Assembly: GCF_036507355.1 (NCBI RefSeq)
Contig: NZ_AP027877.1
DNA length: 64,000 nt
Reading direction: 5' to 3' (one strand)
From: Escherichia coli
Lineage (GTDB): Bacteria > Pseudomonadota > Gammaproteobacteria > Enterobacterales > Enterobacteriaceae
Shown here: positions 187 through 55,760 of the stretch, piece by piece
Numbering within the stretch: position 1 is the first letter of the stretch
Layout: the number at the start of each line of letters is the position of its first letter
Made by a program: the position numbers and the translations under genes
Notes under the pieces: model-generated
Told to the model about the DNA's origin: nothing
Seen by the model: only the letters and a program-made list of their open reading frames with translations
Databases searched by the model: none

Positions 187-1227
187 ATGAGCGACAACAT
201 CCGTGTTGGGTTGATTGGGTATGGTTATGCGAGCAAAACCTTCCATGCGCCCCTGATTGCGGGCACGCCCGGGCTGGAACTGGCGGTAATCTCCAGCAGT
301 GATGAAACAAAAGTAAAAGCCGACTGGCCAACGGTTACGGTTGTCTCTGAGCCGAAGCATCTGTTTAACGATCCCAACATAGACCTGATTGTTATTCCTA
401 CACCCAACGATACCCATTTCCCGTTAGCCAAAGCAGCGCTTGAGGCGGGTAAACATGTGGTCGTTGATAAACCCTTTACCGTGACACTGTCACAAGCGCG
501 AGAGCTGGATGCGCTGGCAAAAAGCCTGGGGCGTGTGCTGTCTGTATTCCATAACCGTCGTTGGGATAGCGATTTCTTGACGCTAAAAGGTTTGCTCGCG
601 GAAGGCGTGCTGGGTGAAGTTGCTTACTTTGAGTCTCATTTTGACCGTTTCCGTCCGCAGGTGCGCGATCGTTGGCGTGAACAGGGCGGCCCAGGCAGCG
701 GTATCTGGTACGATTTAGCACCACATCTTCTTGATCAGGCCATTACGCTATTTGGTTTACCGGTCAGCATGACGGTAGATTTGGCACAGTTACGGCCCGG
801 AGCGCAGTCGACCGATTATTTCCACGCCATCTTGTCCTATCCGCAGCGGCGAGTCATTTTACACGGTACCATGCTGGCAGCCGCTGAGTCAGCACGGTAT
901 ATCGTGCATGGATCCCGAGGCAGTTATGTGAAATATGGCCTCGATCCACAGGAAGAACGTCTGAAAAATGGCGAGCGTCTGCCGCAGGAAGACTGGGGCT
1001 ACGATATGCGTGATGGCGTACTTACCCGCGTGGAAGGTGAGGAACGTGTCGAAGAAACGCTGTTGACGGTGCCTGGGAATTATCCGGCTTACTATGCGGC
1101 GATTCGTGATGCGTTAAATGGCGATGGTGAAAATCCAGTTCCGGCAAGCCAGGCAATCCAGGTAATGGAGTTGATTGAGCTGGGCATCGAATCCGCCAAA
1201 CATCGCGCGACTTTGTGCCTTGCGTGA
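187..1227 (+). CDS. ydgJ: Gfo/Idh/MocA-family NAD(P)-dependent oxidoreductase YdgJ
   Basis: ORF 148..1227; Rossmann motif GLIGYGYASK near the N-terminus; 346 aa if started at internal Met (MSDNIRVG); position next to add matches the known gene order. Confidence 0.85.
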   Translation: MSDNIRVGLIGYGYASKTFHAPLIAGTPGLELAVISSSDETKVKADWPTVTVVSEPKHLFNDPNIDLIVIPTPNDTHFPLAKAALEAGKHVVVDKPFTVTLSQARELDALAKSLGRVLSVFHNRRWDSDFLTLKGLLAEGVLGEVAYFESHFDRFRPQVRDRWREQGGPGSGIWYDLAPHLLDQAITLFGLPVSMTVDLAQLRPGAQSTDYFHAILSYPQRRVILHGTMLAAAESARYIVHGSRGSYVKYGLDPQEERLKNGERLPQEDWGYDMRDGVLTRVEGEERVEETLLTVPGNYPAYYAAIRDALNGDGENPVPASQAIQVMELIELGIESAKHRATLCLA

Positions 1228-1262
1228 AAAATGGATGGTGCAATTTGCACCATCCATTTTTG

Positions 1263-2264
1263 TTACTTCGCAGCGACTTTTTCTCGCAGTGCGCGTTTTT
1301 CCTCTGCGCTGAGGAAAGCCATTTCAAGACCATTAATCTGTGCCTGGCGGATTTGCTCGCGGGATAACCCAGCAGCTGGCGCGGCAACGGTATATTCGTG
1401 AATGATATCCACTCCCTGTACGCCGGGATCGTCAGTGTTAATGCTGGCACGAATGCCATGCTCAAGGAACGTTTTCAGCGGATGTGCAGCCAGCTCAGCC
1501 ACGGTGCTGGTCTGAATATTGGAGGTCAGACAGGATTCAATACCAATTTGTTGCTCGGTGAGAAAATCCATCAGCGCCCGATCTTCAATGGCTTTTACGC
1601 CATGTCCAATACGCTCCGCACCCAGTTCACGAATCGCCTGCCAGATGCTTTCCGGCCCGGCAGCTTCGCCTGCATGGACGGTAATATGCCAGCCCGCATC
1701 ACGCGCGCGGTTGAAGTGAGAAAGGAACAGACTTCCCGGGAAACCAAGTTCATCACCGGCTAAATCAAGTGCGGTAATCTGGTCACGGTGGGCTAAAAAG
1801 GCCTCCAGCTCTTGCTGACAGGCGGCTTCGCCGAAGGTCCGGCTCATAATGCCGATAAGCTTCGCCTGCACACCAAAGGTGCGGCAACCTTCACGTACGC
1901 CATCGATCACCGCTTCGACAACACCCGCTACAGGCAGCTGATGTGCCATTGCCATGTAGCCCGGTGAAAAACGCAGCTCGACATAGTGCAGGCCGTTACG
2001 GGCTGCATCTTCAATGTTTTCAAATGCCACGCGGCGGCAAGCATCAAGAGAGGCGAGAACTTTAACGCCCCAGTCAAGTTTGGTCAGAAAGCTCACCAGA
2101 TCGGGTTCGTTGGCAATGACCTGAACGTGGGGAATCAGTGTTTCCAGGGATTGTGCAGGAAGCGAGATATTATACTGGCGGCCAAGTTCAAGAATGGTCT
2201 GGGGACGAATGTTACCATCAAGGTGGCGATGGATATCAGTTAATGGCAGGGTGGTATCAATCAT
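1263..2264 (-). CDS. add: adenosine deaminase
   Basis: 333-aa ORF with the N-terminal metal-binding HxH motif (DIHRHLDG) and overall adenosine deaminase family similarity. Confidence 0.93.
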
Positions 2265-2367
2265 GGTCGCACTCTTTTTCTGGATATAAAAGTGCGCACC
2301 ATTATAAAAACAAAGCAGGGTAAAAATCCACGATTGCGCAACGATTTTTTACGTTGCGCAATTGGGG

Positions 2368-3540
2368 TTAGCGAACAGCGCGGATGGCGTTAATTAATCC
2401 AGCCACACCTTTTTCCAGTTTCGAACGTGGGCAGCCGGCATTGAGACGGACAAAACCACGACCTTCTTCACCGTAGGTATACCCCGGCATGATCGCGACC
2501 TTTTCTTGCTCGATAAGCGCTTTTTGCAACGCGTTGTCGTCAATATTCAATGGACGTAGATCAAGCCAGGCCAGATAAGTGGATTGCGGGATCTGCCAGT
2601 TGAGTTCAGGAAACGCGGCGTTCATTTTATCTGCGATATACGTCAGGTTATCTTTCAGATAGACGCGTAAGGCATCCAGCCACGGCGCGCCTTGCTGATA
2701 GGCGGCGATATGAGCAGTTAACGCCAGTACCGAAGGGGAAGAAAGCCCATCACGTCCTTTCAGTGCCGATAAATAGGCATCGCGACAACTGCTATTTTCT
2801 ATAATCCCGTAAGCACCGGTCAGGGCGGGAATATTGAAACTTTTCGATCCCGACGTCAGCAACGCCCAGTCTCCGCGAGCCACATTACTCCAGGGAATAT
2901 GCGGCTGTTCGCCCCAAACCATATCCATATGGATTTCATCGGAAATAACCCGCACACCATGACGCTCGCACAGGTCAGCCATGATCTCCAGTTCATCGCA
3001 CGTCCACACTTTCCCGGTAGGATTCTGTGGGCTACACAGGAGCATAATTTTACATTCTGGTTTCGCCAACACGGCTTCCAGCTTGCCCATATCGCAAAAC
3101 CAGCCGTCAGCCTGCTTCTCTAAAGCAACGGGCATTACTGTGCGATGATTACCTTCAATGGCCTTGTAAAATGCGTCATAGGCGGGTGTGTGGATCACCA
3201 CGCCTTCACCTGTTTCAGACCACTGACGAATCAGTTCTGAGACCATATAGATAACAGAAGGGCCATACACCACCGATTGAGGATCGATGGCGGTGTAATG
3301 CTGGGTGGAAAACCAGTGGGCAATAGCCGCGAGAAACTCATCGTTCTTCCAGCGGCTGTAGCCAAACACGCCGTGCATCAGGCGCTGATTCAGCGCCTCG
3401 ATAATGCAGGGGGCAGTGGCAAAATCCATGTCTGAAATCGTGAAAGGTAACAGGTCAGCAGTGCCGAAACGGTCAGCGACATAATCCCACTGCGTACACC
3501 ATGTGCCATGACGATCCACGACCTTTGAAAAATCGAACAT
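2368..3540 (-). CDS. malY: PLP-dependent cystathionine beta-lyase / maltose regulon modulator MalY
   Basis: 390-aa ORF recognised as MalY (aminotransferase class I/II fold); directly downstream of malX as in the malXY operon. Confidence 0.92.
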   Translation of the reverse strand: MFDFSKVVDRHGTWCTQWDYVADRFGTADLLPFTISDMDFATAPCIIEALNQRLMHGVFGYSRWKNDEFLAAIAHWFSTQHYTAIDPQSVVYGPSVIYMVSELIRQWSETGEGVVIHTPAYDAFYKAIEGNHRTVMPVALEKQADGWFCDMGKLEAVLAKPECKIMLLCSPQNPTGKVWTCDELEIMADLCERHGVRVISDEIHMDMVWGEQPHIPWSNVARGDWALLTSGSKSFNIPALTGAYGIIENSSCRDAYLSALKGRDGLSSPSVLALTAHIAAYQQGAPWLDALRVYLKDNLTYIADKMNAAFPELNWQIPQSTYLAWLDLRPLNIDDNALQKALIEQEKVAIMPGYTYGEEGRGFVRLNAGCPRSKLEKGVAGLINAIRAVR

Positions 3541-3549
3541 ATCTTATCC

Positions 3550-5285
<1,736 letters not shown>

Positions 5286-5297
5286 AGTCACATAATC

Positions 5298-6344
<1,047 letters not shown>

Positions 6345-6455
6345 TCCTCTCTTTATCTGCTATACCTGGTAGTGTCCTTTCCTCAAGGTTAATGATAAAA
6401 AATGTGGCACACAGGCGGTGCCTTTTATTTTTACTGAAGTTCACAGGAGGTTTAT

Positions 6456-7223
6456 GTGTTTAATTCTGACAACCTGAGACTCGACGGAAAATGCGCCATC
6501 ATCACAGGTGCGGGTGCAGGTATTGGTAAAGAAATCGCCATTACATTCGCGACAGCTGGCGCATCTGTGGTGGTCAGTGATATTAACGCCGACGCAGCTA
6601 ACCATGTTGTAGACGAAATTCAACAACTGGGTGGTCAGGCATTTGCCTGCCGTTGTGATATTACTTCCGAACAGGAACTCTCTGCACTGGCAGACTTTGC
6701 TATCAGTAAGCTGGGTAAAGTTGATATTCTGGTTAACAACGCCGGTGGCGGTGGACCTAAACCGTTTGATATGCCAATGGCGGATTTTCGCCGTGCTTAT
6801 GAACTGAATGTGTTTTCTTTTTTCCATCTGTCACAACTTGTTGCGCCAGAAATGGAAAAAAATGGCGGTGGCGTTATTCTGACCATCACTTCTATGGCGG
6901 CAGAAAATAAAAATATAAACATGACTTCCTATGCATCATCTAAAGCTGCGGCCAGTCATCTGGTCAGAAATATGGCGTTTGACCTGGGTGAAAAAAATAT
7001 TCGGGTAAATGGCATTGCGCCGGGGGCAATATTAACCGATGCCCTGAAATCCGTTATTACACCAGAAATTGAACAAAAAATGTTACAGCACACGCCGATC
7101 AGACGTCTGGGCCAACCGCAAGATATTGCTAACGCAGCTCTGTTCCTTTGCTCGCCTGCAGCCAGCTGGGTAAGCGGACAAATTCTCACCGTCTCCGGTG
7201 GTGGGGTACAGGAGCTCAATTAA
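6456..7223 (+). CDS. hdhA: 7-alpha-hydroxysteroid dehydrogenase (short-chain dehydrogenase/reductase family)
   Basis: 255-aa ORF with SDR glycine motif TGAGAGIG and catalytic YxxxK (YASSK). Confidence 0.9.
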   Translation: MFNSDNLRLDGKCAIITGAGAGIGKEIAITFATAGASVVVSDINADAANHVVDEIQQLGGQAFACRCDITSEQELSALADFAISKLGKVDILVNNAGGGGPKPFDMPMADFRRAYELNVFSFFHLSQLVAPEMEKNGGGVILTITSMAAENKNINMTSYASSKAAASHLVRNMAFDLGEKNIRVNGIAPGAILTDALKSVITPEIEQKMLQHTPIRRLGQPQDIANAALFLCSPAASWVSGQILTVSGGGVQELN

Positions 7224-7233
7224 TACACTAACG

Positions 7234-7266
7234 AACCGGTAAACAGCCGTATGTGTTGTTTACCGG
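7234..7266 (+). terminator. hairpin downstream of hdhA (candidate intrinsic terminator)
   Basis: Inverted repeat ccggtaaaca ... tgtttaccgg immediately after the hdhA stop. Confidence 0.5.
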
Positions 7267-7451
7267 GATAGCGTGTGCAATTCATCAACGTCTCTGCTAA
7301 ACAACTGGCAGCCAAATCACGGCTATTGGTTAACCAATAGCTGGATGAAAAGCATACGAATAGAGTGTGCCTTCGCACTATTCAACAGCAATGATAGGCG
7401 CTCACCTGACAACGCGGTAAACTAGTTATTCACGCTAACTATAATGGTTTA

Positions 7452-8042
7452 ATGATGGATAACATGCAGACTGAAGCACAACCGACACGGACCCGGATCC
7501 TCAATGCTGCCAGAGAGATTTTTTCAGAAAATGGATTTCACAGTGCCTCGATGAAAGCCATCTGTAAATCCTGCGCCATTAGTCCCGGGACGCTCTATCA
7601 CCATTTCATCTCCAAAGAAGCCTTGATTCAGGCGATTATCTTACAGGACCAGGAGAGGGCGCTGGCCCGTTTCCGGGAACCGATTGAAGGGATTCATTTT
7701 GTTGACTATATGGTCGAGTCTATTGTCTCTCTCACCCATGAAGCCTTTGGGCAACGGGCGCTGGTGGTCGAAATTATGGCGGAAGGGATGCGTAACCCAC
7801 AGGTCGCCGCCATGCTTAAAAATAAGCATATGACGATCACTGAATTTGTTGCTCAGCGGATGCGTGATGCCCAGCAAAAAGGCGAGATAAGCCCAGACAT
7901 CAACACGGCAATGACTTCACGTTTACTGCTGGATCTGACCTACGGTGTACTGGCCGATATCGAAGCGGAAGACCTGGCGCGTGAAGCGTCGTTTGCTCAG
8001 GGATTACGCGCGATGATTGGCGGTATCTTAACCGCATCCTGA
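7452..8042 (+). CDS. uidR: TetR-family repressor of the uid operon
   Basis: 196-aa ORF with N-terminal TetR HTH; located directly upstream of uidA. Confidence 0.9.
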   Translation: MMDNMQTEAQPTRTRILNAAREIFSENGFHSASMKAICKSCAISPGTLYHHFISKEALIQAIILQDQERALARFREPIEGIHFVDYMVESIVSLTHEAFGQRALVVEIMAEGMRNPQVAAMLKNKHMTITEFVAQRMRDAQQKGEISPDINTAMTSRLLLDLTYGVLADIEAEDLAREASFAQGLRAMIGGILTAS

Positions 8043-8430
8043 TCTTCTCATTTCGCGGGCTGGTGATAACTGTGCCCGCGTTTCATACTTTAATTTCCCT
8101 GTACAAAATACAATCTCCCCGGGATCGGAGAATTCCCCCCCCAAAATATTCACCGTAGCCATATGTCATGAGAGTTTATCGTTCTCAAGATGCTCGAACG
8201 AACGTTCGATTGCTTATTTTATGGCTTCTGTCAACGCTGTTTTAAAGATTAATGCGATCTATATCACGCTGTGGGTATTGCAGTTTTTGGTTTTTTGATC
8301 GCGGCGTCAGTTCTTTTTATTTCCATTTCTCTTCCATGGGTTTCTCACAGATAACTGTGTGCAACACAGAATTGGTTAACTAATCAGATTAAAGGTTGAC
8401 CAGTATTTTTATCTTAATGAGGAGTCCCTT

Positions 8431-11612
<3,182 letters not shown>

Positions 11613-51424: not shown

Positions 51425-51470
51425 TACTGAGGTGTACTGGCAATAGCGGACACTACCATTTGTTCTTTTT

Positions 51471-52289
51471 TTAAGCAGCCATCTGATGATATTTTTCCCT
51501 GAAGGCTGCCGGGGAGATATTCCCCAGACGAGAGTGACGACGCTGACGATTGTAGAAAATCTCAATGTATTCCCGTATTACTGAGATGGCTTCATCCCGG
51601 TTATTAAAACGATAGTGGCTCAGGCTCTCATTTTTCAGCGTTCCCCAGAAGCTTTCCATCGGAGCGTTGTCGTAACAGTTACCTTTACGCGACATTGATG
51701 TTTTCAGACCAAACTGCTCCTGTATGACCCGGTAATCGTATGCGCAGTACTGTGAACCTCGATCAGAGTGGTGGATTAGCCCGGCAGGTGGGCGCTGTCT
51801 CCTGAGCGCCATAAACAGGGCTTTACCTGTCAGCTCTTTTGTCATGCGCTCTCCCATGGCGTAGCCGACAATTTCGCACGTATAAACATCTTTGATGCCA
51901 GCGAGGTACAACCATCCCTCCTGTGTGGCAACATACGTCAGGTCCGCCACCCAGACCTGATTTGGTGCTGTAGGAGCGAACGTCTGGTTCAGCAGATTTG
52001 GCGCAACTGGCAGATTGTGGTTCGAGTTCGTAGTCGCTCTGAACTTGCGTTTCTGCTTACAGCGTAGCCTTAGCTCCTTACGAAGACGTGCCAGTCGGTC
52101 ACGACCAACGATGATGCCATTCTCTGCCAGCTCCGTCTGGAGCCGCCGGGTTCCATATGTTTCGCGAGTGCGGATATGTGCCACCTTAATCTCCAGTTTT
52201 AGCCGCTCATCACTTTGTTTTCTGTCTGAGGGTTCATGCTGTACCCAGTTGTAATAACCGCTCCTGGATACACCAAATACCTGACACAT
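51471..52289 (-). CDS. IS600 transposase OrfB (DDE integrase domain)
   Basis: 272-aa ORF recognised as IS600 OrfB; DDE-type catalytic core. Confidence 0.88.
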   Translation of the reverse strand: MCQVFGVSRSGYYNWVQHEPSDRKQSDERLKLEIKVAHIRTRETYGTRRLQTELAENGIIVGRDRLARLRKELRLRCKQKRKFRATTNSNHNLPVAPNLLNQTFAPTAPNQVWVADLTYVATQEGWLYLAGIKDVYTCEIVGYAMGERMTKELTGKALFMALRRQRPPAGLIHHSDRGSQYCAYDYRVIQEQFGLKTSMSRKGNCYDNAPMESFWGTLKNESLSHYRFNNRDEAISVIREYIEIFYNRQRRHSRLGNISPAAFREKYHQMAA

Positions 52290-52324
52290 CGCTTCAATGG
52301 GAAATTGTTGTCGCCATTGTTCGA

Positions 52325-52627
52325 TTAACGCGTATTTTTCAGCGACTCCTGTGCAAAATACGCTGTTGCTTTTTTTAATATATCTCGCTCAAGGCGAGCT
52401 TCATTTAACGCCTTACGCAGTTGCAGAATTTCAGATTCCAGTTCAGCCACCGTGCGGGAACCAGGAGTACCGAGCCCTTTTCTGGCGGCGGTAACCCATT
52501 GTCCTAAAGTGCCTTCAGGAAGAGATAATCGGGAAGCGCCTTCACTGATCGAAAGTTGATTTTCAAGAACCGTTCTGACAGCTTCGGCTTTGAACTCTTT
52601 AGAGTAACGTTGGGTTTTTCTGCTCAT
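52325..52627 (-). CDS. IS600 transposase OrfA (HTH)
   Basis: 100-aa ORF MSRKTQRYSKEFKAEAVRTV... recognised as IS600 OrfA; ends at the slippery heptamer. Confidence 0.88.
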   Translation of the reverse strand: MSRKTQRYSKEFKAEAVRTVLENQLSISEGASRLSLPEGTLGQWVTAARKGLGTPGSRTVAELESEILQLRKALNEARLERDILKKATAYFAQESLKNTR

Positions 52628-54386
52628 TATTAGCTCCTTCTGATGCCATTCTATTTCAGGAAGGAGTGTCCGTTAAACTCAGGCTACCTCATACCAATAA
52701 CGGCGAGTAAGTAGTACGCATCTTACCTCTTTTTTAGAGATAACCATTATGTCAATAGAAAAACACGAAAGAAGCACTAAGGATTTGGTGAAAGCAGCAG
52801 TATCGGGATGGCTGGGCACTGCGCTTGAATTTATGGATTTCAAGAGTCATGCGTGTTAACTATTTGATAAATATTAAATTAATTTTTCATTGCTTCGTTA
52901 TGGGGCATGGTTGGGGCAAACTCGCTTAACTGTGTATTTAACAAAGCTACCTGTGCATTATTGTTTTCAGACATCCATTTTCCGTATAGACCCTCCGCAT
53001 CTTGAGAGTGTTGGTGATAACGCCTGGATGGGAAAGAAATATGGACGGCTGAATAAAGATGCCTGGCGTGATGATTCGCGACAGAGATTTAAAGAAGCCT
53101 TTCGGGTGTTGAGGCCGCACGGCGTTCTGATTTTTTAATGGAATGAAACGCAAATACCGGTAAGCCAGATTCTGGCACTGACAGACAGAAAACCTGTTAT
53201 CTGTCAACGAACAGGGAAAAAACGATAAAACCCACTGGATTATTTTTATGAAAGAGGCATCCAGTGAGTAGATTCGTAAGGCTACAGATACGTATATCTG
53301 AATAATTAAATTCAGTTCTGTAAATAAAATTTAATCCTTAACCGGATGGATTTCTGCACCCTCAGAACATCAGGAGGCCGCCCGAAAGGGCGGTAGTGAA
53401 ATGCGAAAGTTCAAAATTATTATTGAAACGGGAATAGCTGGTGGAGATTTTGAGGATGTATTCGAAGTGGACGATGACGCAACACCTGAGGAAATTCATG
53501 ACGGAGCATAAGAAATTTTCTTTAACTACTGCAATTACTCATACCACGAAATAAAAGACGATGAGGAAGAACAAAGTGGCTGATTTTTGTTCAGCTAAAT
53601 ATAACATCAGTTTTGAAGAGCGGGATGAACTATTAATGGACTATGGTGAGTTACGCGGTGGAAGTGCTGCTGATGTCGAATCCTAGCGTGATGACTATGA
53701 AGCGGGAAAAACTCCGGTCGAAGCATATTGTGATGAGTGGGGCGATGAATGAGCGAGATTAATTATCAGGAAGGGCATGAAACGGCGGGGCAAGCAAAAC
53801 CAGTGGCATGGCGATATCGCTACGTGAAAAAAGGCGTTACGGACTTTCAGGGGAAGTAGTGGTCTGGTGACTGGAAATATGTACCGAAAAAAGAGGATTG
53901 TAACGACAGGCCGAACTATCAAATTCAGGCCTTATTCACTGCCTCACCAGTCCCAGTTACATCAGAAGAACTGGTTAAAGCTGTGCACTTTTATGAACAA
54001 CTAAAACGCGAAAATCCACCAACATCCGGCAACTAGATTAATGGATTAACTATGTCGGTTAAACGACCAGCCAACTGAAAAAGCGGAAACCTGATTACAG
54101 GTTGCCAGATAAGGCAATGAGCTACCTGGCGCGGAACGGACTGATAAGTATGGGGAATGTTTTACGATGAACCTTTAGACTAAAGAGTTTGTAACGCTAT
54201 GTAAGTGATTTTTTCTGGTTTAGATATTTATATGTCCGGCCAAATTGAGGTGTGTTTAAATGTAATTGCACATTGATTGTAGGAGGAATAATGAAAAACG
54301 CATTGCAGTTTTTGTTTGTTGCGTTCTGGTTGTTCGCATCATGTATGCCCATCATCTTCACAGCAAGGTGAATCGCCACGGATAAT

Positions 54387-55199
54387 CTAGACACTTCCGA
54401 GCCGTTGATAATACTGGTTTTCATATTCTGTCGGTGACATCTGATCGCTGGAACCATGCCGACGCTTACTGTTATAAAACATTTCGATGTAATCAAAAAT
54501 ATCGCTGCGGGCTTCTTCCCGCGTTCCGTAGATCTTTTTCTTTATCCGTTCGCGTTTCAACAACTGGAAAAAGCTTTCTGCAACCGCATTATCATGGCAG
54601 TTACCGCGACGGCTCATGCTGCCATCCAGGCCGTGTGATTTCAGGAACGACTGCCACTCATGGCTTGTGTACTGACTGCCCTGATCCGAATGAACCAGCA
54701 CCTGTTTTTGGGGATTACGGCGCCATACAGCCATCAGCAGTGCGTTCAGGACAATGTCCTTTGTCATCCGGGATTGCATGGACCAGCCGATAATTTTGCG
54801 TGAGAACAGATCAACAACCACGGCAAGATACAGCCAGCCTTCGTGGGTCCTGATGTAGGTTATGTCCGTTACCCAACGCTTATCCGGAGCATCCGGATTG
54901 AACTGTCGCTGGAGCCTGTTGGGCGACACGATACTGGCCTCGCCTTTACGTGCCCGCGGGCTCCGGTATCCGACCTGAGCCTTTATCCCGACACGTTTCA
55001 TCAGTCGCCAGACTCTGTTCACTCCGCACTGTTGCCCGCTGTCCCGCAGATCCAGATGGATTTTGCGATAACCATAGACGCATCCCGATTCCAGCCAGAA
55101 CTGTTTAATCTGCCCTGTCAGCCTCAGGTCTGCCTGATGGCGTTGTGAATGCGGCTGCTGAAGCCAGGCGTAAAAACCACTGGGATGAACATCCAGCAC
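54387..55199 (-). CDS. IS3-family transposase OrfB
   Basis: 270-aa ORF with DDE integrase core (…HSDQGSQYTS…, …GNCHDNAVAESFF…). Confidence 0.85.
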   Translation of the reverse strand: MLDVHPSGFYAWLQQPHSQRHQADLRLTGQIKQFWLESGCVYGYRKIHLDLRDSGQQCGVNRVWRLMKRVGIKAQVGYRSPRARKGEASIVSPNRLQRQFNPDAPDKRWVTDITYIRTHEGWLYLAVVVDLFSRKIIGWSMQSRMTKDIVLNALLMAVWRRNPQKQVLVHSDQGSQYTSHEWQSFLKSHGLDGSMSRRGNCHDNAVAESFFQLLKRERIKKKIYGTREEARSDIFDYIEMFYNSKRRHGSSDQMSPTEYENQYYQRLGSV

Positions 55200-55255
55200 C
55201 CGACAGAGCAGGCGAACAGGCCAGCAACAGGTGTTGTCACGGATAAAGGCGTACC

Positions 55256-55540
55256 TCAGTCGGACAGCTTTGCGAAGTACGCCGCGGCTTTTTTTAATAT
55301 GTCCCGTTCGTCGGTAACCCGCTTCAGCTCTTTCTGGAGACGGCGGATCTCGGCCTGAGCATCTGACTGTTCTTTATTAGCGGAAGAATCCGGACCGTAC
55401 TTCTTTATCCAGGCGTAAAGGCTGTGGGTGGTGATATCGAGACGTGTTGCAACGCTGGCAACAGAATAACCGCGATCAACAACCTGTTTGACTGCTTCAA
55501 TTTTAAACTCTTCGGGATAACGCTTACCGCTCATGGGCAC
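55256..55540 (-). CDS. IS3-family transposase OrfA
   Basis: 94-aa HTH ORF ending at the slippery heptamer. Confidence 0.85.
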   Translation of the reverse strand: MPMSGKRYPEEFKIEAVKQVVDRGYSVASVATRLDITTHSLYAWIKKYGPDSSANKEQSDAQAEIRRLQKELKRVTDERDILKKAAAYFAKLSD

Positions 55541-55760
55541 CTCTCTTTAAGCCATCTTAAATGACTCTGAGGTGTCTGTTAAACCCGTGGCGATTCATAA
55601 TTGATCATGGGTTGTCAGTTAAACTCGTGGCGATTTAAATAGACTAATTGGGAGTGCGTCCATTACTTATATCTTGTAATGTTAACTATCAGAAATTCTT
55701 GTAATGTTAACTATCAGAAATGATACAAAGATAATATGTCTTTAAAGAAAAGGCTGATGG

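What the first reader, a model, noticed from the sequence alone, without database searches (positions are those of the whole stretch)
52686..54368. 1.7-kb stretch of fragmented ORFs between the two IS elements: a decayed prophage early region
No intact ORF over 100 aa is present; there are only short reading frames interrupted by stops. Examples are MRKFKIIIETGIAGGDFEDVFEVDDDATPEEIHDGA at about 53401, a frame MSEINYQEGHETAGQAKPVAWRYRYVKKGVTDFQGK-TAG-WSGDWKYVPKKEDC... (TAG at 53857..53859), and a frame ...MDYGELRGGSAADVES-TAG-RDDYEAGK... . No integrase or repressor gene is recognisable, and ORF 52890..53138 ends with a weak SAM-methyltransferase-like motif (EAFRVLRPHGVLIF). This looks like the eroded immunity/int side of the prophage.
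Basis: partly seen in the sequence, partly recalled or inferred. Interest (0 to 1): 0.4.

Follow-up and report, generated by a model that had tools for sequence, protein, structure and literature searches.

The report
Decayed left end of Qin prophage
The 1.7-kb stretch between two insertion sequences is an ordinary, already-annotated remnant of the E. coli cryptic prophage Qin, made of gene fragments and three small phage genes that each carry a premature stop codon.

Summary
Window 52686-54368 lies between IS600 (51428-52691) and a 1,229-bp IS3-family element (54369-55597).

The region is the left end of a Qin-type lambdoid prophage. It holds the first ~28 codons of the host gene ydfJ and about 160 bp of attL plus the integrase 3' end. 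A deletion junction at 52984-52988 has removed about 8.6 kb (int, xis, exo, dicB, ydfABC, dicA, dicC and the replication genes). To its right lie the 3' fragment of a phage DNA methyltransferase pseudogene, three small accessory genes each with an in-frame stop, and the start of a 59-aa membrane ORF cut by the second IS.

Intact versions of all three small genes (60, 58 and 119 aa) exist in other coliphages. The stops are not specific to this genome: the same allele (≥99% identity) is in about 500 complete E. coli records, and RefSeq already flags two of these genes as pseudogenes.

The "decayed prophage" reading holds. The "immunity/int side" reading mostly does not, because most of the DNA comes from downstream of the replication genes.

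One curiosity: all three stops fall at codon 37. This is probably coincidence.

The parts
51428..52691 (-). IS600 (IS3 family, 1,264 bp). It forms the left boundary of the finding and is inserted 3 bp after the rspB stop codon. The 3-bp target duplication TAC lies at 51425-51427 and 52692-52694.
   Evidence: 99.9% over its full length to elements annotated 'IS3-like element IS600 family transposase'. Ends and duplication were read. orfA 52325-52627 and orfB 51471-52289 are.
52692..52825 (+). Host DNA: the rspB-ydfJ intergenic region and the 5' end of ydfJ (start codon at 52749, MSIEKHERSTKDLV...). ydfJ is the gene into which Qin integrates.
   Evidence: Contiguous at 99.7% with the K-12 MG1655 rspB-to-intQ region. 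PMC6379469 states that Qin integrates at the 5' end of ydfJ and removes 28 N-terminal codons.
52826..52988 (-). Left end of the prophage: attL-proximal DNA plus the last ~36 codons of the integrase gene (stop end at 52879, remnant 52879-52988 on the minus strand).
   Evidence: 99.4% to PhiR42_1 positions 1013-1174, where int is 1065-2360 (-). In K-12 the intQ pseudogene ends at the equivalent position.
52984..52988 (.). Deletion junction with 4-5 bp of microhomology (GTAT[A]). It joins the int 3' end to the middle of the methyltransferase gene. About 8.57 kb is missing relative to PhiR42_1 (positions 1175-9744).
   Evidence: blastn map and junction sequences. None of 5,426 E. coli complete genomes spans this junction.
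52986..53271 (+). 3' fragment of a phage DNA (SAM-dependent) methyltransferase pseudogene. The DPPH motif is at the junction. An in-frame TAA sits at 53136-53138 (AAA in intact relatives) and a 1-nt insertion lies further on.
   Evidence: The read-through translation matches phrog_954 'DNA methyltransferase' continuously (E = 4e-73). It also matches ~160-aa intact enzymes of Klebsiella and Stx2c phages across the stop.
53373..53400 (+). Translation-initiation region of g1: AGGAGG, then the hairpin CCGCCC-GAAA-GGGCGG (53379-53394), then 6 nt (TAGTGA) before the ATG.
   Evidence: The hairpin is predicted in both the MFE and the centroid structure. The exact hairpin sequence is present in 80 of 89 related sequences examined (88 loci plus the window).
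53401..53583 (+). g1: DUF7167-family small gene (60 aa when intact). It is a pseudogene here, with codon 37 AAA changed to TAA (53509-53511).
   Evidence: Pfam DUF7167 E = 8e-15 and phrog_1997. Intact in phages 640R1, 689R5 and ArgO145. RefSeq annotates the identical ATCC 8739 copy as 'DUF7167 family protein, internal stop'.
53576..53752 (+). g2: 58-aa small phage gene (phrog_519). It is a pseudogene here, with codon 37 TGG changed to TAG (53684-53686) and the start codon changed from ATG to GTG.
   Evidence: Alignment to intact copies in 640R1, 689R5, Rac and ArgO145. W37 is invariant in the 11 intact sequences aligned.
53749..54036 (+). g3: 119 aa when intact (phrog_660). It is a pseudogene here, with codon 37 CAG changed to TAG (53857-53859) and a 3' end that diverges from, and is shorter than, the intact gene.
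   Evidence: Intact 119-aa copies are in 689R5 and 606R7. RefSeq flags the ATCC 8739 copy as 'frameshifted; internal stop'. Length variation of the upstream poly-A run in TAG alleles is shown.
54292..54368 (+). First 26 codons of a 59-aa hydrophobic ORF (MKNALQFLFVAFWLF..., preceded by GGAGGAATA). It is cut by the IS3-family element. Function unknown.
   Evidence: The full ORF is in ATCC 8739. The only homologues are E. coli and Shigella hypothetical proteins. No family match was found.
54369..55597 (-). IS3-family insertion sequence (1,229 bp, ends TGAATCGCCACGG...). It forms the right boundary. It has no target duplication, and 2,008 bp of Qin DNA (ISNCY remnant plus ydfW) is missing beside it.
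   Evidence: 99.9% to plasmid copies annotated 'IS3 family transposase'. Ends were read. The flanks map to ATCC 8739 locus positions 7387 and 9396.

Best explanation
The interval is non-functional residue of the left part of a Qin-type lambdoid prophage integrated in ydfJ, next to rspB.

Shown steps:
1. An ancestral full-length Qin-type phage already carried a run of dead accessory genes downstream of its replication genes. These are a DNA methyltransferase (nonsense mutation plus frameshift) and three small genes g1-g3 (one nonsense mutation each).
2. In this genome a single illegitimate-recombination deletion at a 4-5 bp microhomology removed about 8.6 kb, from the 3' end of int to the middle of the methyltransferase gene. 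All immunity, recombination and replication genes went with it.
3. IS600 inserted by simple transposition (3-bp duplication) just outside the prophage.
4. An IS3-family element sits on the right with about 2 kb of adjacent Qin DNA missing.

Inferred:
- The order of steps 2-4 is not established.
- The segment has no remaining coding function. At most, g1-g3 would give 36-aa fragments.
For: - Colinearity at 99.9% of 52984-54369 with Qin of ATCC 8739 and ETEC1720 and with the 48.7-kb record PhiR42_1. Window 52826-52988 matches the int end of PhiR42_1, and the right flank resumes in flxA-ydfV-relBE-hokD.
- Contiguity of 52691-52988 with K-12 rspB-intQ, and the published Qin integration site in ydfJ (PMC6379469).
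- Intact homologues of g1, g2 and g3 with sense codons at the stop positions. pN/pS among intact alleles is 0.14, so these are real genes elsewhere.
- The methyltransferase reads through its stop onto intact ~160-aa relatives.
- RefSeq pseudogene flags on the identical copies.
- Further decay within the same haplotype in IMG/VR loci: 1-nt deletions, poly-A length changes and TAG changed to TAA.
- No Rfam match, no tRNA, and promoter-like sites below the shuffled expectation.
Against: - pN/pS of the Qin allele against intact alleles is only modestly raised (0.21 against 0.14), so the inactivations are fairly recent on the scale of allele divergence.
- The three stops share one codon index, which a purely random process gives only about 1 time in 1,000 to 10,000 (and the reasoning in the report).
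- The same allele sits in PhiR42_1, which is deposited as a complete phage genome. So it does not by itself mark a dead prophage.
Confidence: 0.93

Rival explanations
1. One reading: the stretch is the eroded immunity/integrase side of the prophage, with its early genes (ydfA/B/C-like, repressor, int) degraded in place by point mutations.
For: A 110-bp int 3' remnant and the attL side are present at 52826-52988. The stretch is at the int-proximal end of the prophage as it now stands.
Against: Nothing in the interval aligns to dicA, dicC, ydfA/B/C, dicB or exo. Those genes lie in the 8.6 kb that is cleanly missing between PhiR42_1 positions 1174 and 9745. The interrupted frames belong to genes located after the replication genes.
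Confidence: 0.04
2. The in-frame stops are not lesions. They would be decoded (suppressor tRNA, stop-codon reassignment or programmed read-through), so that g1-g3 are expressed genes.
For: Three successive genes each carry exactly one in-frame TAA or TAG. An automatic gene caller translated TAG as Gln on short contigs carrying this allele: proteins P0079 and P0085 read Gln where their contigs carry TAG. The allele is carried by a 48.7-kb phage record with a full gene set.
Against: No tRNA gene is in the window or in PhiR42_1. Both TAA and TAG are involved. The same haplotype goes on to collect frameshifts and a TAG-to-TAA change. The neighbouring methyltransferase has a stop plus a frameshift. 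The g2 start codon is degraded. E. coli uses TAA and TAG as stops (established knowledge).
Confidence: 0.02
3. The three stops at codon 37 reflect a directed or selected process, for example selection for 36-aa products or templated patch conversion between the genes, rather than independent random hits.
For: The naive chance of one shared index is 7e-5. Stops at g2 codon 37 occur on at least three flank haplotypes. A 14-mer (ATGACGGAGCATAA) containing the g1 stop recurs at the same offset in g2 of another lineage.
Against: - The three substitutions are different (A>T, G>A, C>T) and their contexts are unrelated.
- The g1 and g2 families are not homologous (hhalign probability 0.1%).
- K37 and W37 are conserved, not hypervariable, in intact alleles.
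- Reading the intact g2 sequence, it has no Gln or CGA codon, so its only transition-to-stop targets are its three Trp codons. Only a stop at W37 would yield a callable ORF, which explains the recurrence and raises the chance estimate to about 1e-3.
- The g3 TAG is older than the other two and is shared with phages that have intact g1 and g2.
- g1 is inactivated at other positions in other lineages.
Confidence: 0.03

Closest known systems
Qin (Kim) cryptic lambdoid prophage of E. coli, integrated in ydfJ next to rspB
   Same: Same chromosomal site (rspB, then the ydfJ 5' end, then the int end). The right-hand genes match at 99.8% (flxA, ydfV, relBE, hokD, rem, ydfU, ydfT, rrrQ, rzpQ). 52984-54369 is 99.9% identical to the fuller Qin of ATCC 8739 and ETEC1720.
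   Different: This copy lacks int, xis, exo, dicB, dicF, ydfABC, dicA, dicC and the replication genes through one 8.6-kb deletion that is not seen in 5,426 complete E. coli genomes. It also carries two IS elements at its left part. K-12 Qin has a different deletion, and the K-12 stretch examined did not include this methyltransferase/g1-g3 segment.
Escherichia phage PhiR42_1 (PV340562.1; host ECOR13), a 48.7-kb full-length Qin-type genome
   Same: It carries the identical pseudogene cassette (methyltransferase with TAA, and g1, g2, g3 with stops at codon 37) at 99.9% identity, and the same int end.
   Different: It retains the complete early, replication, lysis and structural gene sets, whereas the window keeps only fragments on the left.
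Intact three-gene cassette (DUF7167 60 aa, 58 aa, 119 aa) of lambdoid and Rac-like coliphages such as vB_EcoS-689R5, vB_EcoS-640R1, ArgO145 and Rac
   Same: Same gene order, the same overlapping start/stop arrangement, the same upstream hairpin, and 88-93% nucleotide identity.
   Different: Those copies have sense codons (AAA, TGG, CAG) at codon 37 of each gene. Exceptions: 640R1 shares the g3 TAG together with a +2 poly-A frameshift, and 606R7 has the g2 TAG.

Membership tests
Qin cryptic prophage (E. coli/Shigella, ydfJ site) | Integration at the 5' end of ydfJ, adjacent to rspB | tested here: met
   52691-52988 is contiguous at 99.7% with K-12 rspB-intQ. The ydfJ start is at 52749. The integration site is described in PMC6379469.
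Qin cryptic prophage (E. coli/Shigella, ydfJ site) | Qin gene set to the right (flxA, ydfV, relBE, hokD, rem, ydfU, ydfT, lysis genes) | tested here: met
   55598-64000 matches 1,198 E. coli genomes over at least 80% of its length. The best hits are 99.8% identical and carry these annotations.
Qin cryptic prophage (E. coli/Shigella, ydfJ site) | Immunity/division-inhibition region dicA-dicC-dicF-dicB | tested here: not met
   This region is absent from the window between 52988 and 52984/9. It falls in the 8.6-kb deletion relative to PhiR42_1 and ATCC 8739. This marks a deletion derivative and does not exclude Qin membership.
DUF7167 (Pfam PF23768) for g1 | Full-length match to the 60-position profile above the gathering score | tested here: met
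   The intact homologue scores 55.1 bits (cut-off 24.4) over profile positions 1-60. The window copy is 91% identical at the DNA level to the intact 689R5 copy and has TAA at codon 37.
Phage DNA methyltransferase (phrog_954; class I SAM-dependent) | Continuous alignment including the DPPH/DPPY catalytic motif and an intact reading frame | tested here: not met
   The motif and the alignment are present (E = 4e-73). The window keeps only the 3' part. That part carries an in-frame TAA and a 1-nt insertion relative to intact ~160-aa relatives.
Stop-codon-recoded phage (TAG/TAA reassigned or suppressed) | A suppressor tRNA, or consistent in-frame use of a stop codon in conserved essential genes | tested here: not met
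   No tRNA is in the window or in the 48.7-kb PhiR42_1 record. The stops are confined to this decaying accessory cassette, which also collects frameshifts.

The most novel reading that the evidence does not exclude
The premature stops at exactly codon 37 of three adjacent, unrelated small phage genes are not a coincidence. On this reading, together with the recurrence of stops at g2 codon 37 on several haplotypes and a shared 14-mer around the stop in g1 and in another lineage's g2, they mark a directed process. Candidates are templated short-patch editing, or selection for defined 36-aa products or for switching these accessory genes off and on.
Probability: 0.03. Interest if true: 0.45.

Novelty: already known. 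Interest (0 to 1): 0.08.

Why it matters
It matters little. It is a routine example of how cryptic prophages shrink, through inherited pseudogenes, one microhomology deletion, and IS insertion with adjacent loss. Two practical points follow.
- The 118-aa 'class I SAM-dependent methyltransferase' that RefSeq annotates as intact in Qin (WP_001310834.1) is a truncated pseudogene.
- Gene callers that test alternative genetic codes can be misled into a TAG=Gln translation by this amber-bearing cassette on short contigs.

Tried and rejected
- Rfam scan of 52600-54500 at E ≤ 1 found nothing.
- The promoter scan found 1 site against 3.8 expected. The terminator scan found 3 against 1.6 expected. Neither is informative.
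- tRNA scans of the window and of PhiR42_1 found none, so there is no suppressor tRNA.
- I searched IMG/VR for haplotypes with only one or two of the three stops, using patterns specific to the g1-TAA and g2-TAG alleles. Every locus that covers all three genes carries all three stops.
- An apparent sense allele, 'Gln37', of g2 on the Qin background (P0079, P0085) is a translation artefact. The contigs carry TAG.
- Paralogy of g1 and g2, which could have explained equal stop positions through gene conversion, is rejected (hhalign probability 0.1%).
- Hypervariability at codon 37 is rejected for g1 and g2. Codon 37 of g3 is polymorphic (CAG, CCG, CTG, TGG, TAG).
- The origin of the foreign segment that follows g2 in locus L125 had no exact match in IMG/VR. 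In E. coli genomes it is the edge of a PP2C phosphatase plus Ser/Thr kinase module.
- Pfam and NCBIfam gave nothing for g2, g3 or the 59-aa ORF. PHROGs placed g2 and g3 only in unknown-function families and gave nothing for the 59-aa ORF.
- I did not identify the source organism. IS600 suggests Shigella or an IS-rich E. coli. The GTDB genome collection holds only one genome per species, so I did not spend that scan.

Full report
**1. The observation**

The interval 52686-54368 is exactly the DNA between two insertion sequences.
- On the left is IS600, at 51428-52691. It is 99.9% identical over its full length to elements annotated IS600. It has the expected TG...CA ends and a 3-bp target duplication TAC, and it sits 3 bp after the rspB stop codon.
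- On the right is a 1,229-bp IS3-family element, at 54369-55597.

Inside the interval the longest ORFs are 86 aa and 82 aa. The absence of a 100-aa ORF is not significant in itself. What is significant is that the broken frames align codon for codon with intact genes of other phages.

**2. What the DNA is**

I mapped the region with blastn against fuller relatives: Qin of E. coli ATCC 8739 and ETEC1720, and the 48.7-kb record Escherichia phage PhiR42_1.
- 52692-52825 is host DNA. It holds the rspB-ydfJ spacer and the first codons of ydfJ, whose ATG is at 52749.
- This stretch and the next 163 bp are contiguous at 99.7% with K-12 MG1655, where they run from rspB into the intQ pseudogene.
- Qin is published as integrating at the 5' end of ydfJ and cutting off 28 N-terminal codons (PMC6379469).
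- 52826-52988 matches PhiR42_1 positions 1013-1174. This is the attL side plus the last ~36 codons of int, on the minus strand.
- At 52984-52988 the match jumps to PhiR42_1 position 9745, in the middle of a methyltransferase gene. The two partners share GTAT(A).
- The jump is therefore a single microhomology deletion of about 8.57 kb. It removed int, xis, exo, ydfD, dicB, ydfC/B/A, dicA, dicC, the ydaT-like and O-like genes, DUF977 and the 5' part of the methyltransferase gene.
- None of 5,426 complete E. coli genomes spans this junction.
- From 52984 to 54369 the window is 99.9% identical to the Qin copies.
- Beyond the second IS the sequence resumes about 2.0 kb further along Qin. An ISNCY remnant and ydfW are missing, and there is no target duplication.
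- It then continues at 99.8% through flxA, ydfV, relBE, hokD, rem, ydfU, ydfT and the lysis genes.

**3. The gene remnants**

*Methyltransferase.*
- ORF 52890..53138 is a chimera created by the deletion. Its last 50 codons are the 3' part of a phage DNA methyltransferase.
- With the stop read through, the Qin gene matches phrog_954 continuously (E = 4e-73). It also matches intact ~160-aa enzymes of Klebsiella and Stx2c phages.
- The TAA at 53136-53138 corresponds to AAA in those relatives, and a 1-nt insertion follows.
- So the 118-aa protein that RefSeq calls intact in Qin (WP_001310834.1) is itself truncated.

*Three small overlapping genes.*
- g1 (53401-53583) belongs to DUF7167 (55 bits against a cut-off of 24.4) and is 60 aa when intact.
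- g2 (53576-53752) matches phrog_519 and is 58 aa when intact.
- g3 (53749-54036) matches phrog_660 and is 119 aa when intact.
- Intact copies occur in vB_EcoS-689R5, vB_EcoS-640R1, ArgO145 and Rac.
- Relative to those copies the window has AAA changed to TAA in g1. In g2, TGG is changed to TAG and the start codon from ATG to GTG. In g3, CAG is changed to TAG, and the 3' end is diverged and shortened.
- Among intact alleles pN/pS is 0.14, so these are real genes elsewhere. Between the Qin allele and intact alleles it is 0.21.
- RefSeq already flags the identical ATCC 8739 and ETEC1720 copies as pseudogenes: 'internal stop' for g1, and 'frameshifted; internal stop' for the hypothetical-protein pseudogene that covers g3.

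*Small membrane ORF.* At 54292 begins a 59-aa hydrophobic ORF with a strong ribosome-binding site. The IS cuts it after codon 26. It has only hypothetical homologues in E. coli and Shigella.

**4. Age and distribution of the lesions**

- The triple-stop haplotype is not local. 503 E. coli records carry the cassette at ≥99% identity, and 27 IMG/VR loci matched the g1-TAA pattern.
- In IMG/VR, every locus that covers all three genes carries all three stops.
- Some loci have decayed further, with 1-nt deletions, poly-A run changes and a TAG-to-TAA change.
- The g3 TAG is older. It is shared with 640R1-type phages that have intact g1 and g2. In those phages the upstream A-run has grown from 6 to 7 or 8 bases.
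- Only three lesions are specific to this genome: the 8.6-kb deletion, the IS600 insertion, and the IS3-family element with its adjacent loss.

**5.

'Decayed prophage' is right, and so is the methyltransferase hint. 'Eroded immunity/int side' is mostly wrong. Only about 160 bp comes from the int end. The immunity region is deleted outright rather than eroded. The interrupted genes come from the accessory segment downstream of the replication genes and are unrelated to ydfA/B/C.

**6. The codon-37 curiosity**

All three stops fall at codon 37 of their genes. A one-step nonsense model gives 7e-5 for one shared index. I looked for a cause and found none.
- The substitutions differ (A>T, G>A, C>T).
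- The g1 and g2 families are not homologous.
- K37 and W37 are conserved, not hypervariable, in intact alleles.
- There is no suppressor tRNA in the window or in PhiR42_1.
- Apparent Gln37 alleles are an artefact of a gene caller that used a TAG=Gln code.

Stops at g2 codon 37 do recur on other haplotypes: 606R7, and a lineage in which a PP2C phosphatase/kinase module follows g2. There is an ordinary explanation. Reading the intact g2 sequence, it has no Gln or CGA codons, so its only transition-to-stop targets are three Trp codons. A stop at W37 is also the only one of these that leaves a callable ORF.

One oddity remains. A 14-mer (ATGACGGAGCATAA) around the g1 stop recurs at the same offset in the g2 of that other lineage. 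I regard the whole pattern as probable coincidence. I give about 3% to a directed process.

**7. Conclusion**

This is an ordinary, already-annotated kind of feature: a deletion-and-IS-riddled remnant of the Qin cryptic prophage that carries inherited pseudogenes. It has low interest and no novelty.

Noticed in passing
window 53509-53511, 53684-53686, 53857-53859: The premature stops of the three adjacent small genes g1, g2 and g3 all fall at codon 37. The naive chance is 7e-5, or about 1e-3 after allowing for which codons can mutate to stops. The same haplotype is in about 500 E. coli records. No cause was found, so this is probably coincidence.
   Followed up: yes
L125 241-254 versus window 53498-53511: A 14-mer (ATGACGGAGCATAA) that includes the g1 stop of the Qin allele recurs in g2 of another lineage. 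It lies at the same offset from the start codon and again ends in TAA at codon 37. In that lineage g2 is followed by a PP2C phosphatase plus Ser/Thr kinase module.
   Followed up: partly
L001 5800-6270 (ATCC 8739 Qin); window 53136-53138: The 118-aa 'class I SAM-dependent methyltransferase' annotated as intact in Qin (WP_001310834.1) ends at a TAA that is AAA in ~160-aa intact relatives, and it has a 1-nt insertion downstream. It is a truncated pseudogene.
   Followed up: yes
window 53373-53403: A conserved GC hairpin with a GAAA loop (CCGCCC-GAAA-GGGCGG) sits between the AGGAGG Shine-Dalgarno sequence and the g1 ATG. They are 22 nt apart in the linear sequence. This looks like a split ribosome-binding site brought together by folding. 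The exact hairpin is present in 80 of 89 related sequences examined (88 loci plus the window).
   Followed up: partly
L122-L124 (Logan contigs) and proteins P0079, P0085: A public gene call translated the in-frame TAG of g2 and g3 as Gln on short contigs carrying this cassette. This is apparently an automatic choice of a TAG-reassigned genetic code that was misled by two amber pseudogenes.
   Followed up: yes
window 53820-53833; L004 and IMG/VR loci: The poly-A run in g3 (GTGAAAAAAGG) varies among alleles that carry the TAG: 6, 7 or 8 A's, or loss of the following G. This is typical slippage in a gene that is already dead. The 640R1 annotation calls the resulting frameshifted 85-aa ORF a gene.
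   Followed up: yes
window 54369-55597 and flanks: The IS3-family element has no target-site duplication, and its flanks are 2,008 bp apart in ATCC 8739 Qin (an ISNCY remnant and ydfW are missing). This indicates an IS-associated adjacent deletion, or recombination between two IS copies.
   Followed up: partly
window 53300-53325: An AT-rich inverted repeat (CTGAAT-AATTAA-ATTCAG) lies at the point where homology to other lambdoid phages begins (53298). It may be a mosaic module boundary or a protein-binding site.
   Followed up: no
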